Shown one piece after another: positions 55,825 through 64,000 of a stretch of DNA of 64,000 nucleotides; position 1 is the stretch's first letter, and every line of letters begins with the position of its first letter. This DNA is from Candidatus Latescibacterota bacterium (lineage in GTDB: Bacteria > Latescibacterota > UBA2968 > UBA8231), in the NCBI GenBank assembly GCA_965217585.1, contig OZ244561.1, forward strand, positions 1,696,001 to 1,760,000, in the 5' to 3' direction. Below the pieces are notes generated by a model. The model was not told the DNA's origin. It did no database searches and saw only the letters and a list, made by a program, of their open reading frames with translations. Position numbers and translations under genes: made by a program.

Positions 55825-57088
55825 CTACCGCTCCCTGAAGGAGGAGGCTTGTCCCTGGCTCACCCGGCCGCCGCAGCGGTAGGGAGGCCGAAACTATAGG
55901 CTCGTTGACACAGAGCCCTGGCTCGGATGTTCCGAGCCGCGTTGACATCGGCATGAGCTTGGTGTCCACACCGACGACAACAAAACCGAGATTGAGATAA
56001 GCGATTAGCCCGCTCGACATGTTCGCATTGAGAACACATCTGACTGGTATGCTTGGGAGAAACCCTCTTGACCCGCACGCCAGCGGCCTGCGCCTTGTAG
56101 GCGATAAACTGCCTCAGTTGGTCAAAAGCCCATCCCGTCATGCGGGCACGTTGAGGCTTGCGAAACCGGATGCTATCCCGGATGCCCTTGAGGTCTTCGA
56201 GGGCAATACCCCGGATAGTGTCTTTAGCCTGCTCAACGATACGCTTGGAGAGGACGTGGTTGGTATTTCTGCGGAAGTTGGCTTCTTTGAGCGCGCGCCG
56301 ATGCAGCTTCTTGCGGATGCGCTTGCGCGCCCGATGGTTCTTGGCCAGGTCAGCCGCCGATTGAAGGCGCTGGCGCAGCGTCTGGCACGTAAGGCGCACC
56401 CGCTCCACGTCGGCACCCGAGTGCCGTTGACCATCCGAGTCCGTGGCAAGGTTGGCTACGCCCAAGTCGATGCCGAGGAAGTCGTCAGGATCGACCGGCG
56501 GCGCGTCGTCGTATTCGACCGTAGCCATCAAGAACCACTTCCCATCGCGCCGACGCACCAACTCGGCATACCGCTTGACGTGGCCGAGCTGGCTGGCTTG
56601 GTAGTCGCCCATGACCATCGGCACGACGATACGACCCTGGAGCGTAGAAAGGGAGACCTCTTTGAAGTCTCTGTAGTGGAGCAGATGCCGGTCATAGGGC
56701 ATCGACGCCAGCGGGCGAAACGACACCTTTTTGCTCTTGTCGCGCTTGTAGGCCGCTGCCACTTGGGCAAAGGTCAGACAGGCCATTTGCGCGGGCAGGT
56801 CAAACTGCTGGCGCACTTTATAATAGTATAGCTTATGCAGGGCATAACGATTGGCCAGCTTGCGCTCAAAGGCTCGCTCGGCGACCCAATCACACGCGGC
56901 ATTAACGCTGCATGGTCGCTAAGAAAGCCGTGGCCTGATCGGCAGAGGGGAGCAGTTGGATTTGAATAACTCGCTTCATACAGACCAATACAGTTCGTAT
57001 GGAAAACCTTGTCAACCCGTAAAAACCAAAGGGAGAATCGGCGTTTCCTCTGTCGCCTGAAGACGACAGTCTCCACGCCAAAATTTCT
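55820..57088 (-). mobile_element. IS200/IS605-family element, tnpB only (non-autonomous)
   Basis: Subterminal hairpins (CTGTCGCCTGAAGACGACAG at the left end, CTCCCTGAAGGAG at the right end). The right end finishes in TTGAC, TTCAT precedes the left end, and there is no TSD. Confidence 0.85.
55860..56979 (-). pseudogene. tnpB: RNA-guided endonuclease TnpB with 5' frameshift
   Basis: MKRVIQIQLL...MQR* then NAACDW... in another frame near 56903. RuvC motifs GIDLG, ALEDL and ADVNAA and the CSQC/CRRC finger are intact. Confidence 0.85.
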
Positions 57089-57185
57089 ATGAATCGCTTA
57101 TCGTCGCCACCGAATCGTTCGGGGATGCTCAGAGTGCCGTTGTGAAGGAATTGGTGCGTTTCAGGGATCAGCCTGGTACTTCCGC

Positions 57186-57240
57186 CACCCGTCCTCGGTA
57201 GAGCGCTACTGCGGACGGGTGGATGCCCGAACCTGCGCCA
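57186..57240 (+). repeat. 55-bp palindromic repeat, copy 2
   Basis: Diverged copy of 47962-48016. Confidence 0.75.
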
Positions 57241-57357
57241 TTACCCGAGCCAGATTCCCCTTGCCTGGGAACGAGAGAATGCCGTTTATTCTTCCTATCC
57301 GCTCGTCCACCGTCAAAAAGCAAGCAAAGTAGAGTGAGAGAATCATCGAAGCAGGGA

Positions 57358-59325
57358 ATGAGCGTCGGCGGCGTTGACCCGTCGATTCTTCGAGAGCTGT
57401 CCGGCGTCTACAAGCCGTTCATCAAAGCATTCAAAGAACTCGTCAGCAACGCGTACGACGCCGACGCGGCCGATGTTTCAATCGAGTTTGCGGACGACTT
57501 CACGTCTGCGACCATTGCGGATGACGGCAACGGGATGAGTCCGTTTGAGTTTCGATCCGACTTCACGCGGATCGGTGGCAGTAGCCGCAAATGGTCAAAG
57601 GGAAGGACGCCGAAGAAAAAGCGAAGCCGCATTGGGAACAAGGGCATAGGCTTCCTTGCACTTGCTCGCTACTGCGATCGGATGGTCGTTACTTCGAGCA
57701 GTCCTCGTCAGTTCAAACAAACACATTCGGTCGAAAAGACGTCACCTTACATCGACATAGTCAGCGTTCTCGGAGTACCAATTGACCCGCAGTTACTCAA
57801 TAAAGTGTGCAAGTTCGAGGTAACGCGGTCTGGAAAACGGTCGAAGGTTGCTGCTACCAACTACGAGTTGAACGCGAATACTGGTCGCCTTGCCTTCAAG
57901 AAGGACTTTGGTCCGGTCGACATTGCAATTACGATCGACTGCAACAGGTTGGGTTTCCAAGCGACTCTGGACTTTGATCGCTTGCTCAAGCTTGCGGATT
58001 CTGCCGACCTCGAAAAGCTGTCCGATTTCACGTTGATCGAAGTCCGCGAGCTGCCACGGGAGTCAAAGGACGGGACAAAGGTCGCGATCGAAGGATTGAA
58101 GTCGTTTGTCAAACGCGAACTCAGAGCAGATCGCCGGAAGGGCTTCGTTCGAAATGTTGCGAGTCGCAGCGGGTTTGAACAGGTCGCGTGGCACTTGTCT
58201 CGTTGCACGCCAATCGACTACGCGACGGCACCAGATCAAGCTGAACATCTTGAAGCCCTCTTGGAGGATGCGTCGCCACCGACACTGGATAAACTGACTC
58301 TTCGACACAACAAAACGGAGAGCGCGTTGACTCGTCCTCTCTATCCGTTCGAGCCGGACGCAGCGACGCTGCACAAAGATATGATCACGGAGGTGGACAT
58401 CAACGAGGGTGGTCTTGTCGCAAAGGGGTTTCTTCTCGGCTACGAAAGCGTCGTGTTCCCAGCCGAGTATCGAGGCGTTTCGATACGCGTCCGCGGTGTC
58501 GCCATCGGCGATCCGACGTTTCTCGGTGCAGAATTCCTCCTAACGGGAGCACATAAGGCCGCATTGAGCCAGATCACTGGCGAGATAAATGTGCTGAGCG
58601 GCTTGGACGCGGTGGATGCACTCAATCCAGGTCGCGAGGATTTCTACGAAGAGAGTGGTGATTTTCTCACCCTGCGTCGGTATTTCCGTGGCGACGGTGA
58701 AAAGGTTGGCGGCTATCTCGGCAGGACGATCGACGCCGTCTTGAAACGAAGCCAAGCGAGGTCGTCACTCAACAGCACCTTGAGTCGTGCGGCGTGCATC
58801 CGGCGTGCGATGGACGATGTGTCGGCGGGGATAACACACCTGATGACCGACGGAGGAAAAGAAGCGAGAGCGATACGTGAGATGCTCAAGTCGAACAAAT
58901 CGCACTCGAACGGGTTGGTATCCGCGAAGCCGGCAGGATTTGACATTCCCAACAAAGTGGCCGGAATGGCGGTCAATCAGGCGAAACGCCAGTCGGAAGC
59001 AGCAGCAATAGACTATGAGAAAGCACAGGTGACAATCGACGTATCTCGCCCTGAATGGGATAACGGACTCGTGTTGTTCAAACGGCGGTTCGACGTCATC
59101 CACAAGAAGGGCACGGCGAGTCAACCGATTGCTGAAATCGACTTCAAGGAGGACCGAATTCTCGTCAATTGGGGCCACGCTGCAAAGTCGCAGATGGACG
59201 AGCGGGGATTCCTGCGGACTGCCCTAGCATGGGTACTGGCACGAACAGCAGCCGATGGCGACGCCGATCAGATGATGGAAATGGCCATAACGTTGTTGTC
59301 TTTCACTACGCAGCCCAATGACTAA
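57358..59325 (+). CDS. GHKL (MORC/MutL/Hsp90-like) ATPase
   Basis: KELVSNAYDA (N box), DDGNGM (G1), GNKGIG (G2), GTKV (G3) and S5-like GVSIRVRGVAIG/ITGEI. Start is 57358 or 57334. Confidence 0.88.
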   Translation: MSVGGVDPSILRELSGVYKPFIKAFKELVSNAYDADAADVSIEFADDFTSATIADDGNGMSPFEFRSDFTRIGGSSRKWSKGRTPKKKRSRIGNKGIGFLALARYCDRMVVTSSSPRQFKQTHSVEKTSPYIDIVSVLGVPIDPQLLNKVCKFEVTRSGKRSKVAATNYELNANTGRLAFKKDFGPVDIAITIDCNRLGFQATLDFDRLLKLADSADLEKLSDFTLIEVRELPRESKDGTKVAIEGLKSFVKRELRADRRKGFVRNVASRSGFEQVAWHLSRCTPIDYATAPDQAEHLEALLEDASPPTLDKLTLRHNKTESALTRPLYPFEPDAATLHKDMITEVDINEGGLVAKGFLLGYESVVFPAEYRGVSIRVRGVAIGDPTFLGAEFLLTGAHKAALSQITGEINVLSGLDAVDALNPGREDFYEESGDFLTLRRYFRGDGEKVGGYLGRTIDAVLKRSQARSSLNSTLSRAACIRRAMDDVSAGITHLMTDGGKEARAIREMLKSNKSHSNGLVSAKPAGFDIPNKVAGMAVNQAKRQSEAAAIDYEKAQVTIDVSRPEWDNGLVLFKRRFDVIHKKGTASQPIAEIDFKEDRILVNWGHAAKSQMDERGFLRTALAWVLARTAADGDADQMMEMAITLLSFTTQPND

Positions 59326-60673
59326 GTCTGTCACAGGACAAACACTGCTGAAGCAGGTGCAAAAGGGTGACCGGATACTGCTGGTAAACCCACCAGTGTT
59401 CGAGACACGCTATAGCTGGCTGCGGTGGAATCAACCACTGGATCTACTCAGGGCCGGGGCGTACCTCAAGAGCAGCAAGAAGTGCAGCGTTGAGCTGTTT
59501 GACTTCATGCTACCCAACGACAAAGGCCGCGTTCAAAAGAAAGGGTTGATTGGGCGAGAGCGATACAAAGAAGTTGGTGACGGAGACTTCGCCTACACAT
59601 ATCCGATGTGGAGATTCGGAAAACCATTCGACGCACTCAATGACTGGCTGGTCGAGCGACGTGCCGGCAACAAGCGAGGCGAGCCAACTCAAGTATGGAT
59701 CACTTCGCTGTGCAGCTATTGGTACGCCAGCATTCACCAATTATGCACGAAGCTACGCCTTTGGTTGCCAGACGCGACACTGGCGGTGCTGGGCAACTAC
59801 CCACGATTTATGCTGGACAACGCAGTGGACTTCTGCGATGCCGACCTGGTCGTCAGGACGCCGCTAAATCATGCCGACGAGGGATCATCACTGAAGCTCT
59901 ACGAAGCCGAGAGACCTCCATTCATTTCGGTCCCCCTCAATCCAGCTACAGCCATCCCTGCGATCGAGGAAGCGATCGAACTCGGAGTATTTCGTGTTGC
60001 CGTATTTGATGCCGAGGACGACATTTGCCGCGACAAGGGCAAGCCACTTCGGGAGATCGTCGAGAGCACGAAGAACCTCCATCAACACCTGAGATTTCAT
60101 GCGATATCGGGAGTGCATCCCGAACGGGTCACGCCAGACTTAGCGAAGATATTCGCGGAACGAACGTTCGCGGAGCTGTACTTTGAGCAGTCCAAGGAGG
60201 AATTGGAGTTAGATGAGGCCGCATACGAGCAGTGTCGGGCCTACCTGCTGGAAGCGGGGATTGATCTTTCTGATGGAAACAAAACCTGCGGATTCGTGTG
60301 GATTGGACGCCCGGACGAAACACTGGAAGGGATCGTCCGTCGTAGTTTCACCGTTCTCAGCACGTTTGGGAGTGTCATCCTCAAGCCGTACACGGCCGTG
60401 CCAGGAACAGAGCTATACGAACGGCACAAGGATTATCTGGACGATCTTCCGTACGCTGATCTGTCTCCACACAGATTTCCGTTCGCCGAGTACAACGGAA
60501 TCACCCGGAACGAGTACCATGACCTCTACAGAATGGCGGCGTTCCTCAACGAGAAAGTACGGAACCGGTCGTTCGACTTGTTGAACGGCAGTATGGGTGC
60601 CGAGTTGCTGCGAAACAGTTTACATCGCGAGGTTTGGAATCTTGAAGCGTCCCCCCTCAGCATTATTGATTAG
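59318..60673 (+). CDS. Degenerate B12-binding/radical-SAM paralogue lacking CxxxCxxC
   Basis: Collinear with the next gene (LLVNPP..W.QPL.LL, VWITS..SYW, YTAVPGTELY, LN.KVRN.SF.L), but no Cys triad. Confidence 0.7.
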   Translation: MTKSVTGQTLLKQVQKGDRILLVNPPVFETRYSWLRWNQPLDLLRAGAYLKSSKKCSVELFDFMLPNDKGRVQKKGLIGRERYKEVGDGDFAYTYPMWRFGKPFDALNDWLVERRAGNKRGEPTQVWITSLCSYWYASIHQLCTKLRLWLPDATLAVLGNYPRFMLDNAVDFCDADLVVRTPLNHADEGSSLKLYEAERPPFISVPLNPATAIPAIEEAIELGVFRVAVFDAEDDICRDKGKPLREIVESTKNLHQHLRFHAISGVHPERVTPDLAKIFAERTFAELYFEQSKEELELDEAAYEQCRAYLLEAGIDLSDGNKTCGFVWIGRPDETLEGIVRRSFTVLSTFGSVILKPYTAVPGTELYERHKDYLDDLPYADLSPHRFPFAEYNGITRNEYHDLYRMAAFLNEKVRNRSFDLLNGSMGAELLRNSLHREVWNLEASPLSIID

Positions 60674-62210
60674 TCCGCCTGTCTACGACGTACAGTATTG
60701 GGCGAACTGGAGCATGCCCTATGGCTTGTTGCGTGTCGCATCGTGGCTTCAGGGCAAGGGCTACATGCTGAAGCTGATCGACTGCATGGAGGCCAACAAG
60801 CGGCGAACCGTACCCAAGCAGATGCGGTGTGTACGAAAACTCGGCTCAGCGGACGAACCCTTCACGCCGGGCAAGTGGACGGACTACGAACCGCAGCCCG
60901 ACGAAAAGATCGAGTACGTGTTCGGCATGCCGCTAAAGGAACTGCGGAAACGGCTCGAAGCGATCAAGGTACGTGCAAGGTATGTGCGTGAATCGCTGTT
61001 CGACGAAGTAGCCTTTCCAGAGCCAGATGAAATCTGGATTTCGTCGATCATGACGTACTGGTGGGAAAGCACTCGCGACGTGATCGAAGTCTGTCGGCAA
61101 GTGTTTCCGAAGGCCGTGTTCCGTGTTGGTGGAATCTACCCGACGCTCATTCCCGAACACGCGATGCAGAACCTCGGGTTGAATGATCCACTGCACTTGA
61201 TGGGTCGCGAGTTGGATCCGCTTAATGCCAAGCAGAAGAAGCGTGACATCGTAGTGTCCGCGACGATCCCCGATGCGAATCCACTCCCACTTGCCATTGA
61301 GTTGTACGACAAGGACGGTGCAGGCGACGACGAAGATGGCGAAGAAGGCGAGAAATTGCCCGATTACCTCATCATGACGACGAGTCGTGGCTGTCCTTTC
61401 AAGTGTGCTTACTGTTCGGCCAACGTTTTGAACGAAGGCCGAAAGATCTGGGTTCGGGAATACGAGGTTGCGTACGATGAGATCAAGCGGCGGTTTGAGC
61501 AAGGAATTCGGGAATTCTGTTTCTATGAGGACAACCTGCTGCTCGGCAGAGATAATTTCAAGCAGCTTTGTCGACTGATTCGTGACGACCGCGATTTGAA
61601 AGGGATCGAGTTGCACGCACCAGAGGGCATTGAAGTCCGCCTGCTGCACGAAGACACCGTCCAACTGATGCGTGACGCTGGCTTCAAGAGGTTATACCTG
61701 CCGCTCGAAACCGTCAATGCGAACATGGCCAAATCGTGGCAACGGACGCACACAAACATGGACAAGTTCTTCTACGCGTTGAACAACGCGGAGAAGGCCG
61801 GCTTCAAGTTGCGTTGCCAAGACATCAACTGCTTCATTCTCTTCGGCCTGCCAGACGAAGACCTGCAAGCGGTGTACGACACAATCACATTTGCCTCAAG
61901 CCGAGTCGGCTCTGTGATTCCCATGCTGTTCACTCCAGTGCCAAGCACGCCATTGTTCGAGCAGTACCGACCGTACATCGAAGACAAAGGTTTCGATCTA
62001 CACCACTTGAATGGAAAGCTGCTTCCTTTCCTCGATTACAATCGCCACAAGTACAAGTCGCTATCAGTACACGACTACAACTCAATCGAAGGGTTGATGT
62101 GGAGACTCAATGCGAAAGTTCGCAACGCGAGTTTCAATCTCGGCGGCGAGGGTCGAGTAGCGAGGGCGTTCCGAGAAGTGTACAACGCGATGGAACCGAT
62201 GTCTGTCTGA
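60642..62210 (+). CDS. B12-binding-domain radical SAM enzyme
   Basis: PYGLL, GGIYPT, TSRGCPFKCAYC, FYEDN, LFGLP and PVPSTPL motifs. TTG start after GAGG. Confidence 0.9.
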   Translation: MKRPPSALLISPPVYDVQYWANWSMPYGLLRVASWLQGKGYMLKLIDCMEANKRRTVPKQMRCVRKLGSADEPFTPGKWTDYEPQPDEKIEYVFGMPLKELRKRLEAIKVRARYVRESLFDEVAFPEPDEIWISSIMTYWWESTRDVIEVCRQVFPKAVFRVGGIYPTLIPEHAMQNLGLNDPLHLMGRELDPLNAKQKKRDIVVSATIPDANPLPLAIELYDKDGAGDDEDGEEGEKLPDYLIMTTSRGCPFKCAYCSANVLNEGRKIWVREYEVAYDEIKRRFEQGIREFCFYEDNLLLGRDNFKQLCRLIRDDRDLKGIELHAPEGIEVRLLHEDTVQLMRDAGFKRLYLPLETVNANMAKSWQRTHTNMDKFFYALNNAEKAGFKLRCQDINCFILFGLPDEDLQAVYDTITFASSRVGSVIPMLFTPVPSTPLFEQYRPYIEDKGFDLHHLNGKLLPFLDYNRHKYKSLSVHDYNSIEGLMWRLNAKVRNASFNLGGEGRVARAFREVYNAMEPMSV

Positions 62211-62216
62211 TTTGCG

Positions 62217-63068
62217 TCAAGTTGGTCGTTCGACCTGCGGCGGATAGAGCTCGGTCCGCGGGATCATCCTGTCCATTCGACGCAGGGGATAGTTGATTAT
62301 CTCTGCGAGAGAATCTGCTTGCGTCAGATCGGGTAGAGCTCCCGGTTGCTTCACGAATTCGGCATAGAAGTGAACGAGATGGTGCTCTCCATCCGTGCCT
62401 GTTGTGGAACTACTATAAACTGTCGGTATTTCAAAGTGCACAGCGAAACCATATGACATGCCTACTTGCCAGCAGAGAAAAGGAAAGCACAGTTTGAGTC
62501 GCGTTGCCTGGTTTCGCTGGTGAGCTTCACAGCACTCCTCAATACCTTTCCAGCCGCGCAAAGCCTCCGGAACGTTGTCTATGAACTGGGAGTATTCCTT
62601 AGCACCCTTGTCGCGGACGTTAAACGTTGCGATCAAGATGAATGAGTCGCTTCGTTGCGATTGCTGGTGAATAAGGCTGCGAATTGCATCGACACATCGA
62701 GAGTTACCCTCTGCGGTTGGATACACGAATCCACCGTAGAAATCCAAATTGTAAAGGTCATAGACATCGTTCGTATTTACGAGGAACTCCAGAACATTGT
62801 CTTGAACGAAGTGTATGGGCAAATCGAGTGATCTACGATCCCATTCTATACGCATGTCCGACAGGACATCTTCCTCCATTTCCACCGCACACACAGACCG
62901 TAACTCGTCATGCCACGCCGAAATATCCAAAAACTCCACACTTGGCATGCCGCAGTATGTCAGGCCCAGTTGAATCTTGTGCAAGGATCGAAATGCCCTG
63001 ATACTCCGAGCGTCACGCCGACGTAGCTCACGCTTGGCTTGACTGTCTGGAAACCGATTGAATGGCAT
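62217..63068 (-). CDS. Hypothetical protein, SAM-methyltransferase-fold-like
   Basis: YCGMP, CAVE, DN and YDLYNLDFYG are spaced like Rossmann MTase motifs. Translationally coupled to the upstream gene (TAATG). Confidence 0.55.
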   Translation of the reverse strand: MPFNRFPDSQAKRELRRRDARSIRAFRSLHKIQLGLTYCGMPSVEFLDISAWHDELRSVCAVEMEEDVLSDMRIEWDRRSLDLPIHFVQDNVLEFLVNTNDVYDLYNLDFYGGFVYPTAEGNSRCVDAIRSLIHQQSQRSDSFILIATFNVRDKGAKEYSQFIDNVPEALRGWKGIEECCEAHQRNQATRLKLCFPFLCWQVGMSYGFAVHFEIPTVYSSSTTGTDGEHHLVHFYAEFVKQPGALPDLTQADSLAEIINYPLRRMDRMIPRTELYPPQVERPT

Positions 63069-64000
63069 TACTCTATCAATCCATGTTGGCGAAAGACCTG
63101 ATAGATCCCTTCGCAGATGTCTGTGATAGACTCGTCATCAGCCGGCAGCTTGTTTTCAACCACGTGGACGATGTCAGAAAGCAGTTCTTCAGCGTCGAAC
63201 TCGAGGTGTTCTTCATCACGACTCGGTTGTGCGTCATCGTCCACATCGCCTCCATCGTCATCCGGCTTATCTTCTTCAGTGGCTTCGACATCATCTTTAG
63301 TGTCCTCATCAACCTCGTCTTCAGCTTCCTGTTCCAGCAGCTCCGTGAGTGCGGTAATAAGTCGGTTTCGACGGTCTTTTAAATCCTGCGTTGCTAACAG
63401 TGTACGAAGACGACGCTTTACCTTCTCTTGCGGAGTCCTGCCCCGCGTCAACGTACGCTGTTGCTCAAGCTTCTCCAGTTGATCCGAAATCTTATCGGGA
63501 GTAATTTCATCTGGGGCGTCGACGATTTCTTGTGCGAAGTCTAGTTCCTTCTTCTTCGTATTGAACTGTGACAGTGCTCGGCTGTCCGCGATGCGGTCCT
63601 CATAGAAGCCACGAATCGCTTCGATAGCTCGGCGAGCCATTACATCAAGCTCAAGTGCTGTGCGAGGAGTATCTGGTACGATGGCAGGATTCGTGATGTG
63701 GACCGCACCTACGTGCCAGTGGAGATGTGTGCGGCTGGACAGCTTGAGCTTGTTTACAATCCCGAATGCCGACCCATCCTCATCGTCGTATATCCCAATC
63801 GGCCCAACTGCAAAGTTGCGAATGCGAAGGCGGAAACTGCGATATTGAAAGTCCCGGGGCGTAATCGATCGATGGTCAGAACAATACCAGCAGCGTGCAT
63901 ACTCCTCGCCATTTGCCGTGAGCGTCTTAAAGCAAGGTTTTTCGAGGTCTGCCGGAAACTGTTGGAAGACTTCCCCGCCTTCGACGAGGATCGGAAACTC
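63068..64000 (-). CDS. C-terminal part of a probable second GHKL-type ATPase (5' end outside window)
   Basis: The frame is open to the window edge. FRLRIRNFAVG...VGAVHI.NPAIVPDTPR resembles the S5 transducer domain, followed by a coiled coil and an acidic tail. Confidence 0.55.
   Translation of the reverse strand, partial: EFPILVEGGEVFQQFPADLEKPCFKTLTANGEEYARCWYCSDHRSITPRDFQYRSFRLRIRNFAVGPIGIYDDEDGSAFGIVNKLKLSSRTHLHWHVGAVHITNPAIVPDTPRTALELDVMARRAIEAIRGFYEDRIADSRALSQFNTKKKELDFAQEIVDAPDEITPDKISDQLEKLEQQRTLTRGRTPQEKVKRRLRTLLATQDLKDRRNRLITALTELLEQEAEDEVDEDTKDDVEATEEDKPDDDGGDVDDDAQPSRDEEHLEFDAEELLSDIVHVVENKLPADDESITDICEGIYQVFRQHGLIE

What the first reader, a model, noticed from the sequence alone, without database searches (positions are those of the whole stretch)
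59318..62210. Active/inactive radical SAM paralogue pair (possible pseudoenzyme partner)
The two overlapping genes are collinear from the B12-binding-like N-terminus to the C-terminal LN.KVRN.SF.L motif. The first has PPFISVPLNP where the second has TSRGCPFKCAYC, so it cannot bind the canonical [4Fe-4S] cluster. It is nevertheless a full intact ORF, which suggests retention as a scaffold, sensor or heterodimer subunit rather than decay.
Basis: partly seen in the sequence, partly recalled or inferred. Interest (0 to 1): 0.7.

Follow-up and report, generated by a model that had tools for sequence, protein, structure and literature searches.

The report
Radical-SAM enzyme with inactive twin partner
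An iron-sulfur radical enzyme is encoded right behind an ancient twin that has lost its catalytic iron-sulfur loop but is kept by selection and is predicted to bind it, on a mobile gene island that looks built to modify or police DNA and that we could not find described.

Summary
Confirmed and extended. Gene A (59318-60673) and gene B (60642-62210) are full-length paralogues (23% identical). A has not merely mutated its cysteines: the ~22-residue CxxxCxxC loop is deleted and the SAM-ribose glutamate is gone. This is ancient, not decay: 0 of 120 close homologues carry the motif, 72 motif-less relatives down to ~22% identity form one clade, and dN/dS is 0.08-0.23. A is followed by B in 58 of 61 loci where the next gene can be read; the 3 exceptions are broken A genes. 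Both carry a C-terminal extension missing from stand-alone relatives, and a complex prediction joins them through it (0.84, best control 0.00). Best reading: a pseudoenzyme/enzyme heterodimer. Here it follows a MORC-like GHKL ATPase on a patchily distributed low-GC island with further GHKL + methyltransferase-fold pairs, a HerA motor and other radical-SAM genes; a deeper branch has the pair without that ATPase. The substrate (probably DNA or nucleotides) and cobalamin binding are inferred, not shown. No description found in ten literature searches. New variant of a known kind; interest 0.72.

The parts
59318..60673 (+). Gene A, 451 aa: cluster-less paralogue with the B12-binding-like domain + radical-SAM barrel fold (pseudo-radical-SAM subunit)
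   Evidence: No Pfam, NCBIfam or PADLOC hit; AlphaFold2 pLDDT 91.5; best structural matches AprD4 Z 19.8, MgmA 18.6, TsrM 17.4; motif absent family-wide
59915..59953 (+). A residues 200-212 (PPFISVPLNPATA): strand 1 of the barrel joined directly to the next helix; site of the ~22-residue deletion of the cluster loop
   Evidence: Alignment of 136 rows; the three Cys columns of B are gaps in 54, 72 and 71 of 72 A-type rows and never Cys among the listed top residues
60320..60652 (+). A residues 335-445: helices and C-terminal extension (LNEKVRNRSFDLL) that form the predicted interface with B
   Evidence: Interface list; extension present in A (median 41 residues after N411) and B (35.5) but not in outgroup relatives (9.5)
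60642..62210 (+). Gene B, 522 aa from TTG: intact radical-SAM enzyme with N-terminal B12-binding-like domain
   Evidence: Pfam Radical_SAM 63.7 bits over cut-off 29.5; B12-binding 20.5 under cut-off 32.1; structural matches AprD4 Z 23.6, TsrM 22.2, MgmA 22.0; motif in 109 of 109 homologues of 450 aa or more
61392..61415 (+). CPFKCAYC, the CxxxCxxC cluster motif of B (residues 251-258)
   Evidence: Sequence; invariant C251, C255, C258
57358..59325 (+). GHKL1: MORC/MutL/Hsp90-type ATPase directly upstream, stop overlapping the start of A by 8 nt (ORF open from 57223; likely start 57334 or 57358)
   Evidence: HATPase_c_3 E 2e-15; ATP-binding motifs invariant; upstream of A in 64 of 75 loci by clustering
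62217..63068 (-). Convergent 283-aa methyltransferase-fold-like gene (PP_RS20740-like), last gene of the opposite operon
   Evidence: NF047698 E 2.7e-6, far under cut-off; Atlas top hits 0.96 PP_RS20740-like and 0.94 Methyltransf_35 clusters; fold not solved here
63068..64000 (-). 3' part of GHKL2 (534 aa, starts beyond the window), always upstream of the 283-aa type gene
   Evidence: HATPase_c_3 E 3.5e-12; partner tally
57088..57301 (.). ~214-bp copy of the sequence upstream of katG; second copy (87%, direct) 15 kb away brackets the island
   Evidence: single copy at the empty site in G134, G142, G126

Best explanation
A is a pseudoenzyme subunit. An ancestral B12-type radical-SAM gene duplicated in tandem; one copy (B) kept the [4Fe-4S]/SAM chemistry, the other (A) deleted its cluster loop once, long ago, and is made 1:1 with B from an overlapping gene. 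They form a pseudo-symmetric A-B heterodimer through a C-terminal helical extension that both share. B does the radical chemistry; A stabilises it and, with its opened barrel and its own conserved polar residues (R31, W34, W37, Q39, K356, S383-P-H385), most likely helps bind or select the substrate. In this branch the pair sits behind a MORC-like GHKL ATPase, in the same slot that SAM-dependent methyltransferase-fold genes occupy behind the island's two other GHKLs, so the most likely job is ATP-clamp-assisted chemical modification of DNA (or of nucleotides) in a mobile self/non-self system. SHOWN: homology, loop deletion, single clade, purifying selection, gene order, mobility. PREDICTED: fold, heterodimer. 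INFERRED: what A contributes, cobalamin use, the substrate, the defence role. My odds: pseudoenzyme heterodimer about 0.8; nucleic-acid-directed given that, about 0.65.
For: Motif: 0 of 120 close homologues; no Cx(1-14)Cx2C variant in those 120 or in 72 A-clade rows, no Cys column above 41 of 72, 5 of 72 rows have under three Cys. SAM-ribose Glu (B E356, aligned to the GxES of AprD4 and MgmA) is Glu in 28 of 28 B, 35 of 36 outgroup, 9 of 72 A. One origin: 72 motif-less rows on one branch with motif columns removed (99, FastTree, 136 rows; 91 SH-aLRT, IQ-TREE quick, 55 rows). Selection: dN/dS of A 0.08-0.23 in the 14 of 20 locus pairs with a finite value. Pairing: of 75 loci with an A ORF, B follows in 58, 14 end at a contig edge, 3 differ and in those 3 A is truncated or a fragment (L073 and L080 read; L074 is a near copy of L073). 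A and B distances correlate (rho 0.92, 35 loci; GHKL1 with A 0.74, 30 loci; kin not independent). Complex: score 0.84, best of 3 controls 0.00; the mark was reached by 116 of 157 solved complexes and 2 of 215 mismatched pairs (counts hold only roughly with my own alignments); runs agree in at least 84% of contacts, partner pLDDT at least 85; the interface uses the extension absent from outgroup relatives. Context: 34 of 39 loci of 8 kb or more carry a second GHKL, HerA, DUF5131, DGQHR or SNF2 gene; GHKL2 is followed by its methyltransferase-fold-like gene in 14 of 18 cases by clustering (2 more by alignment) and GHKL3 by its own in 15 of 16; a GHKL-free pair is followed directly by a type IIG R-M gene and MNT-HEPN (L119). 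Mobility: pair in 6 of 168 genomes of the own phylum, 2 of 31 of the own genus; empty site in three congeners; GC 50-57% against 59.5%.
Against: No binding, cofactor or activity was measured. One genome has a B-type gene and no A found (G920, 2.6 Mb, completeness not given). A-A and B-B homodimers could not be folded as controls, and a symmetric interface between paralogues may pass for that reason. Inter-protein covariation was inconclusive. The top structural match of B, AprD4, does not bind cobalamin (PMC12931638, passage), so the 'B12' label is not secure. No nuclease or canonical DNA methylase was recognised in the own island. 5 of 39 loci lack the DNA-type neighbours; L046 has other radical-SAM and PLP-enzyme neighbours, L118 sugar transporters. 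No background rate for such neighbours was computed. A and B are not net basic (median net charge -2 and -1.5).
Confidence: 0.55

Rival explanations
1. Same heterodimer, but the substrate is a protein or small molecule, not nucleic acid; the GHKL is a dedicated Hsp90-like chaperone that folds or loads cofactors into the enzyme encoded behind it.
For: Each of three GHKLs is tied to one downstream enzyme-like gene; GHKL2's best NCBIfam hit is an HSP90 family model (E 3e-7); the GHKL1 profile hits MutL and Hsp90 N-domains at similar weak level; a preprint names an HSP90 + radical SAM neighbourhood for another system (10.64898/2026.10.19.760177, section 32); close structural matches include protein and metabolite modifiers.
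Against: GHKL1's best NCBIfam and PADLOC hits are to the ATPase part of type II restriction enzymes; GHKL3 fits the MORC motif of PMC2292703 by eye; neighbours are DNA-directed; the pair exists without GHKL1.
Confidence: 0.2
2. A is an inhibitor (antitoxin-like, dominant-negative twin): it keeps a toxic radical enzyme B off until the GHKL or HerA ATPases open the complex during infection, when B damages DNA or nucleotides.
For: A precedes B with overlapping genes; A evolves faster than B (about 50% against 73% identity to Planctomycetota copies); an inactive methylase domain is proposed as a dominant negative in DndH (PMC10853773, passage); nucleotidase and deoxyribosyltransferase neighbours occur.
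Against: The predicted interface lies on the C-terminal helices, which by sequence are away from the cluster loop (geometry not inspected); A keeps its own conserved residues in the N-terminal domain; a B without A exists in G920.
Confidence: 0.12
3. A is itself an enzyme or cofactor carrier without the cluster, for example a cobalamin-dependent polar methyltransferase in the manner of TsrM, or a cobalamin donor to B.
For: The N-terminal domain is as conserved as the rest; W135, G159, Y161, H168 are kept in 65-72 of 72 rows; 9 of 56 A-type members still hit Pfam B12-binding; deep-branch A proteins keep the GG motif (L118, L119); TsrM's cluster does not bind SAM (PMC12931638, passage).
Against: The two glycines invariant in B (G28, G163; recalled as lining the cobalamin pocket, not tested) are kept in only 13 and 14 of 72 A rows and are D and L in this copy; the SAM-ribose Glu is lost.
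Confidence: 0.1
4. A is a decaying duplicate (pseudogene in the making).
For: A diverges faster than B; broken copies exist (L012, L013, L073, L080).
Against: dN/dS 0.08-0.23; intact ORFs down to 22% identity; one clade; confident fold.
Confidence: 0.01

Closest known systems
B12-binding-domain radical SAM enzymes (SFLD subgroup 5 per PMC9477430; structures AprD4 6fd2, TsrM 6wte, MgmA/QCMT 9ccb, CysS 9n1d, OxsB 5ul4)
   Same: Rossmann-like N-terminal domain plus partial TIM barrel in both A and B; B has CX3CX2C and the SAM-ribose Glu.
   Different: B scores far under every NCBIfam family cut-off (best 50 bits against 600). A lacks the cluster loop. I found no report of a cluster-less partner subunit for this class (searches; passages of PMC12931638).
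Pseudo-radical-SAM proteins: TIGR04347 pseudo-SAM/SPASM (name seen); TIGR04150 of the GG-Bacteroidales system (recalled, from no call)
   Same: A radical-SAM-derived protein without the motif; for TIGR04150, kept beside an active cognate enzyme (recalled).
   Different: Different subfamily (SPASM peptide maturase type); 0 of 56 A-type proteins hit these models; A has no SPASM cysteines; an independent origin.
Enzyme/pseudoenzyme heterodimers from tandem duplication (QTRT1/QTRT2, METTL3/METTL14, ketosynthase/chain length factor; recalled, only search listings seen)
   Same: Inactive paralogue kept as obligate partner of the active one.
   Different: None is a radical-SAM enzyme; here the catalytic loop is deleted outright.
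Prokaryotic MORC/paraMORC restriction-modification-like systems (PMC2292703, parts 1-2 of 4 read)
   Same: Sporadic GHKL ATPases with intact motifs, several per locus, beside modification genes.
   Different: Those carry SFII helicases, DNA methylases and nucleases; here the slot behind GHKL1 holds the A-B pair, and no nuclease or canonical methylase was recognised in the own island. Radical SAM is not mentioned in the parts read.
DndFGH and 'HerA/FtsK capture' systems (PMC10853773, passages); PADLOC candidates PDC-M41/PDC-M30 (DUF5131 + TcmP)
   Same: The island's HTH-HerA matches the C-terminal ATPase of DndH (E 3e-42); neighbouring DUF5131 genes match PDC-M41B/M30B (E 1e-104).
   Different: Only that domain matches; no DndF/DndG; A and B have no PADLOC family. 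These are neighbours, not the pair.

Membership tests
Radical SAM superfamily (protein A as an active member) | CX3CX2C or a CX(4-11)CX2C variant binding the SAM-cleaving [4Fe-4S] cluster (PMC9477430) | tested here: not met
   0 of 120 and 0 of 72 rows; loop deleted
Radical SAM superfamily (protein A as an active member) | Partial TIM barrel fold | tested here: met
   Predicted model matches AprD4 Z 19.8, rmsd 3.7, 341 aligned
Radical SAM superfamily (protein A as an active member) | SAM-ribose-binding Glu on strand 4 (role recalled; column fixed by alignment to AprD4/MgmA) | tested here: not met
   Glu in 9 of 72 A rows against 28 of 28 B rows
Radical SAM superfamily (protein B) | CX3CX2C and Pfam Radical_SAM above cut-off | tested here: met
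   63.7 bits against 29.5; 109 of 109 homologues
Cobalamin-dependent radical SAM enzymes (protein B) | N-terminal Rossmann-like B12-binding domain | tested here: inconclusive
   Fold present but Pfam B12-binding under cut-off, and the top match AprD4 has such a domain without cobalamin
Cobalamin-dependent radical SAM enzymes (protein B) | Binds and uses cobalamin; hydrophobic lower-axial residue in radical methylases (W76 of TokK) | not testable with these tools
   W140 of B and W135 of A are near invariant; equivalence to TokK W76 is recalled, a sequence search could not align that region
TIGR04347 pseudo-SAM/SPASM and other NCBIfam pseudo-rSAM models | HMM match; C-terminal SPASM domain | tested here: not met
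   No such family among matches of 56 A-type members at E 0.001; no conserved Cys cluster
MORC/paraMORC R-M-like systems | GHKL ATPase with intact ATP-binding motifs | tested here: met
MORC/paraMORC R-M-like systems | MORC motif GhXhhpXXRhl in the S5 domain | tested here: inconclusive
   By eye: GHKL3 fits (GVDVYGNGRLI), GHKL1 does not (GVSIRVRGVAI), so GHKL1 is at most paraMORC-like
MORC/paraMORC R-M-like systems | Linked SFII helicase, DNA methylase or restriction-fold nuclease | tested here: not met
   None recognised in the own island; SNF2 in 5 of 39 loci; unrecognised nucleases cannot be excluded
DndFGH | DndF, DndG and full-length DndH | tested here: not met
   Only the HerA part of DndH matches a 456-aa protein
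Anti-phage or DNA-modification system | Modified DNA or protection from phage or plasmid | not testable with these tools
   Needs experiment

The most novel reading that the evidence does not exclude
GHKL1-A-B is a cellular DNA-modifying machine that uses cobalamin/radical chemistry to write a new base mark (for example C-methylation at an unactivated carbon), with a cluster-less twin as the specificity subunit and a MORC-type clamp as loader: a modification-based immunity system whose writer is a radical-SAM heterodimer and not a Rossmann methylase.
Probability: 0.3. Interest if true: 0.9.

Novelty: new variant of a known kind. Interest (0 to 1): 0.72.

Why it matters
Radical-SAM catalogues are built on the cysteine motif, so a subunit like A is invisible to them (no Pfam, NCBIfam, PADLOC or PHROG hit). 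If the heterodimer is real, it is a clear pseudoenzyme subunit in the B12-type radical-SAM class, and B-type enzymes would not be expected to work when expressed alone. It also marks the conserved core of an undescribed mobile system across several phyla (Latescibacterota, Gemmatimonadota, Planctomycetota, Chloroflexota, Binatota by record titles), and gives a three-gene unit that can be expressed and tested for a new DNA modification.

Tried and rejected
Recent decay: rejected. Alternative Fe-S ligands in A: six Cys are conserved in the close family but none above 41 of 72 across the clade; rejected as a clade-wide site, not excluded for the close family. Inter-protein covariation on 75 paired sequences (effective 59.5; 36 pairs matched by eye through equal contig length, not exhaustive): 25 predicted contacts had mean Z 0.43 (2% of random sets reach it) but 0 of the top 50 pairs lay in the interface; inconclusive. 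Fused form: one 948-aa A-B fusion, P0402, single sequence, A half lacking its last helices; may be a deletion or assembly artefact, weak support only. Phage or plasmid origin: no B relative in viral contigs, none in annotated phages, only partial distant hits in plasmids, no A in plasmids. Expression: two sponge metatranscriptome runs with a small word share hold short contigs inside GHKL1, A and B, but contigs in an RNA library do not show transcription. Promoter and terminator scans gave chance-level counts. The bracketing repeat has no Rfam match and no unusual folding (z -0.67). The two methyltransferase-fold-like genes did not align with each other and have no solved relative by sequence. 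Planctomycetota sample: 1 of 401 genomes with two matches (the centre), 5 single matches at E 1e-56 to 1e-59 not inspected; phylum of G170: 1 of 301; long queries can miss matches and few candidates per genome were scored. Literature: ten searches found no description; the library lacks most subscription papers, one paper on TIGRFAMs radical-SAM families was not held, and I read no supplements (those of PMC10853773 and PMC2292703, and the closed ones of the bioRxiv preprints, may list such neighbourhoods). Earlier-findings searches by sequence, words and relatives were empty.
Full report
Observation. Gene A (59318-60673, 451 aa) and gene B (to 62210) lie in tandem on the + strand. They are homologous over their whole length: 23% identity, E 9e-24, profile probability 100%. 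B has CPFKCAYC and scores as Radical_SAM above the Pfam cut-off; A hits nothing in Pfam, NCBIfam, PADLOC or PHROGs. B most likely starts at TTG 60642 (522 aa; the best homologue is 522 aa), overlapping A by 32 nt; A's start overlaps the stop of the upstream ATPase gene by 8 nt. AlphaFold2 models of both are confident (pLDDT 91.5 and 92.2) and match the same structures: AprD4, TsrM, MgmA, CysS, OxsB, MiaB.

What A has lost. In an alignment of 72 motif-less, 28 B-type and 36 outgroup rows, the segment around the motif has a median of 44 residues in A against 66.5 and 64: the cluster loop is deleted. No Cx(1-14)Cx2C variant occurs in these 72 rows or in the 120 closest homologues; 109 of 109 B homologues of 450 aa or more keep the motif. 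Six cysteines are conserved among close homologues but the best column holds Cys in 41 of 72 rows of the clade. The glutamate that aligns with the GxES motif of AprD4 and MgmA (SAM-ribose role recalled) is kept in 9 of 72 A rows, 28 of 28 B rows. Two glycines invariant in B's N-terminal domain (G28, G163) are kept in 13 and 14 of 72 A rows; two deep-branch A proteins keep the second. A keeps W135, G159, Y161, H168 (Asn in this copy) and has its own conserved residues, such as R31 (93%) where B has Q and K356 where B has M.

It is ancient and selected. A search of 50%-identity representatives listed 150 hits; of the 81 with 400 aa or more, 36 lack the motif. With the motif columns removed, all 72 motif-less rows fall on one branch (support 99, FastTree, 136 rows; 91, IQ-TREE quick, 55 rows, two long-branch motif rows left out). 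Rooted on ten motif-bearing outgroup rows, A and the B-type rows group together (100); five of those ten come from loci where no A was seen beside them, the context of the others is unknown. Pairwise dN/dS for A is 0.08-0.23 in the 14 of 20 comparisons with a finite value, for B 0.05-0.17 (12 of 20), for the ATPase 0.10-0.30 (14 of 20).

A and B travel together. Of 85 loci examined (L001-L014, L025-L095), 75 had an A ORF of 80 aa or more; the other 10 were cut by contig ends or were stand-alone motif-bearing relatives. B follows A in 58, the contig ends in 14, and 3 differ; in those A is truncated or a fragment. The set includes near-duplicate loci and kin, and was collected with A as bait, so it says little about B without A. 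Genome searches address that: in the own phylum 6 of 168 genomes have both and 23 have only a weaker single match, of which the four inspected are motif-bearing outgroup genes; in the phylum of G169, 5 of 401 have two matches and one, G920, has a B-type gene and no A found. That is the one counter-example; the genome is 2.6 Mb and its completeness is not given.

Heterodimer. ESMFold2 gave B+A a score of 0.84 against 0.00 for the best of three controls; that mark was reached by 116 of 157 solved complexes and 2 of 215 mismatched pairs, counts that hold only roughly with my own alignments; runs agree in at least 84% of contacts and partner pLDDT is at least 85. This supports binding and does not show it. 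Both chains extend 35-41 residues past the column of A N411, outgroup relatives 9.5; interface columns of A are somewhat more conserved than the rest (0.50 against 0.42). Homodimers were not folded, covariation was inconclusive, and a single A-B fusion protein (P0402) is weak support.

Context. In this genome the pair follows GHKL1 and converges on an operon read beyond the window: KOW/RHH-like protein, HTH-HerA (DndH-like ATPase part), a third radical-SAM protein (spore-photoproduct-lyase-like by recall; weak Pfam hit), GHKL3, a Methyltransf_35-like gene, duplicated 3' ends of that third enzyme and of B, GHKL2, and a PP_RS20740-like gene. GHKL1 precedes A in 64 of 75 loci by clustering and in L026, L029 and L080 by tblastn. 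GHKL2 and GHKL3 are each followed by their own methyltransferase-fold-like gene (14 of 18 and 15 of 16 by clustering), so A-B fills the same slot behind GHKL1. Of 39 loci of 8 kb or more (six near-duplicates dropped), 34 carry at least one of GHKL2, GHKL3, HerA, DUF5131, DGQHR or SNF2; Shedu, AbiEi, TcmP, nucleotidase and integrase genes also occur. A deeper branch has A-B without GHKL1 (L088, L089, L118-L120); L119 continues into a type IIG R-M gene and MNT-HEPN, L120 lies near an N6-methylase, L118 among sugar transporters. So A-B is the irreducible unit. The island has lower GC, is bracketed by two copies of the sequence upstream of katG, and is absent at that site in three congeners, while two others carry different cargo there.

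Mechanism. Most likely A is the non-catalytic half of an A-B heterodimer that B needs for stability and substrate selection, and the complex chemically modifies DNA or nucleotides, loaded or licensed by GHKL1. The first half rests on sequence, selection, gene order and a model; the second on neighbours alone, without a computed background rate and without a recognised nuclease. Rivals: protein or metabolite substrate with a chaperone-like GHKL (0.2), A as inhibitor of a toxic B (0.12), A as a cluster-independent cobalamin enzyme or carrier (0.1), decay (0.01).

Comparison and novelty. B works like a B12-binding-domain radical-SAM enzyme but belongs to no named family, and cobalamin use is open because AprD4, its top match, does not bind it (PMC12931638, passages). 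A fails membership of active radical-SAM enzymes and of the pseudo-SAM/SPASM model. Pseudoenzyme partners and pseudo-radical-SAM proteins are known kinds (TIGR04347 name; others recalled), as are MORC-linked modification systems (PMC2292703, parts 1-2 of 4). I saw passages of PMC10853773, PMC8828468, PMC9477430, PMC7159879, 10.1101/2025.09.30.679545 and 10.64898/2026.10.19.760177; none of what I saw describes this pair, nor did ten searches. Supplements were not read. Verdict: real, new variant of a known kind, interest 0.72; if it writes a new DNA base mark by radical chemistry (probability 0.3) it would deserve 0.9.

Noticed in passing
window 57088-57301 and L001:18143-18355; L102-L107: The region upstream of katG is an insertion hot spot: single copy in G134, G142, G126; several partial copies with different cargo in G146 (Prok-E2_C/ThiF gene, HTH gene and others) and G129 (DUF4365 protein). 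The insertion mechanism is unexplained; no integrase lies in the own island.
   Followed up: partly
L001:10651-11320: Back-to-back remnants: a 3' fragment of the third radical-SAM gene (77% DNA identity to the intact one) and the 3' end of a second B gene (79%), showing that two alternative GHKL + methyltransferase-fold cassettes were stacked by recombination.
   Followed up: partly
window 55860-56816 (-): IS605-family TnpB gene (Cas12f1-like_TNB, OrfB_IS605), with two related copies elsewhere in the genome at 84% and 73%.
   Followed up: no
L021-L024, L090, L092-L095: A stand-alone, motif-bearing sister family lacking the C-terminal extension; in L021 and L023 it lies beside a DinB/IMS polymerase family gene, in L021 also a nucleoside deoxyribosyltransferase-like gene.
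   Followed up: partly
L058, L065, L068, L070, L077: One sub-branch carries a DGQHR (DndB/DpdB-like) gene before GHKL1, plus a module of ParB-like genes, a 145-aa protein and an SNF2 helicase, and a conserved ~190-aa unknown gene after B.
   Followed up: no
L073:9929-11119: Chimeric ORF: N-terminal half of A joined to what reads as a HerA C-terminal part (by eye); recombination or misassembly.
   Followed up: no
P0402; P0270; P0176: P0402 is a single 948-aa A-B fusion; P0270 (783 aa) carries two CxxxCxxC motifs; P0176, a motif-less member, is labelled Methanobacteriaceae archaeon by its source.
   Followed up: partly
L046:6891-11356: Here the pair converges on a PLP-dependent enzyme and three other radical-SAM genes, two RaSEA-like: a context that points to small-molecule or base chemistry.
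   Followed up: no
window 57268-64000: In run X3 the island is one contig of depth 7.5 while the left flank sums to 36-80; summed contig depth is no copy number, so only a weak hint that the island is strain-variable.
   Followed up: no
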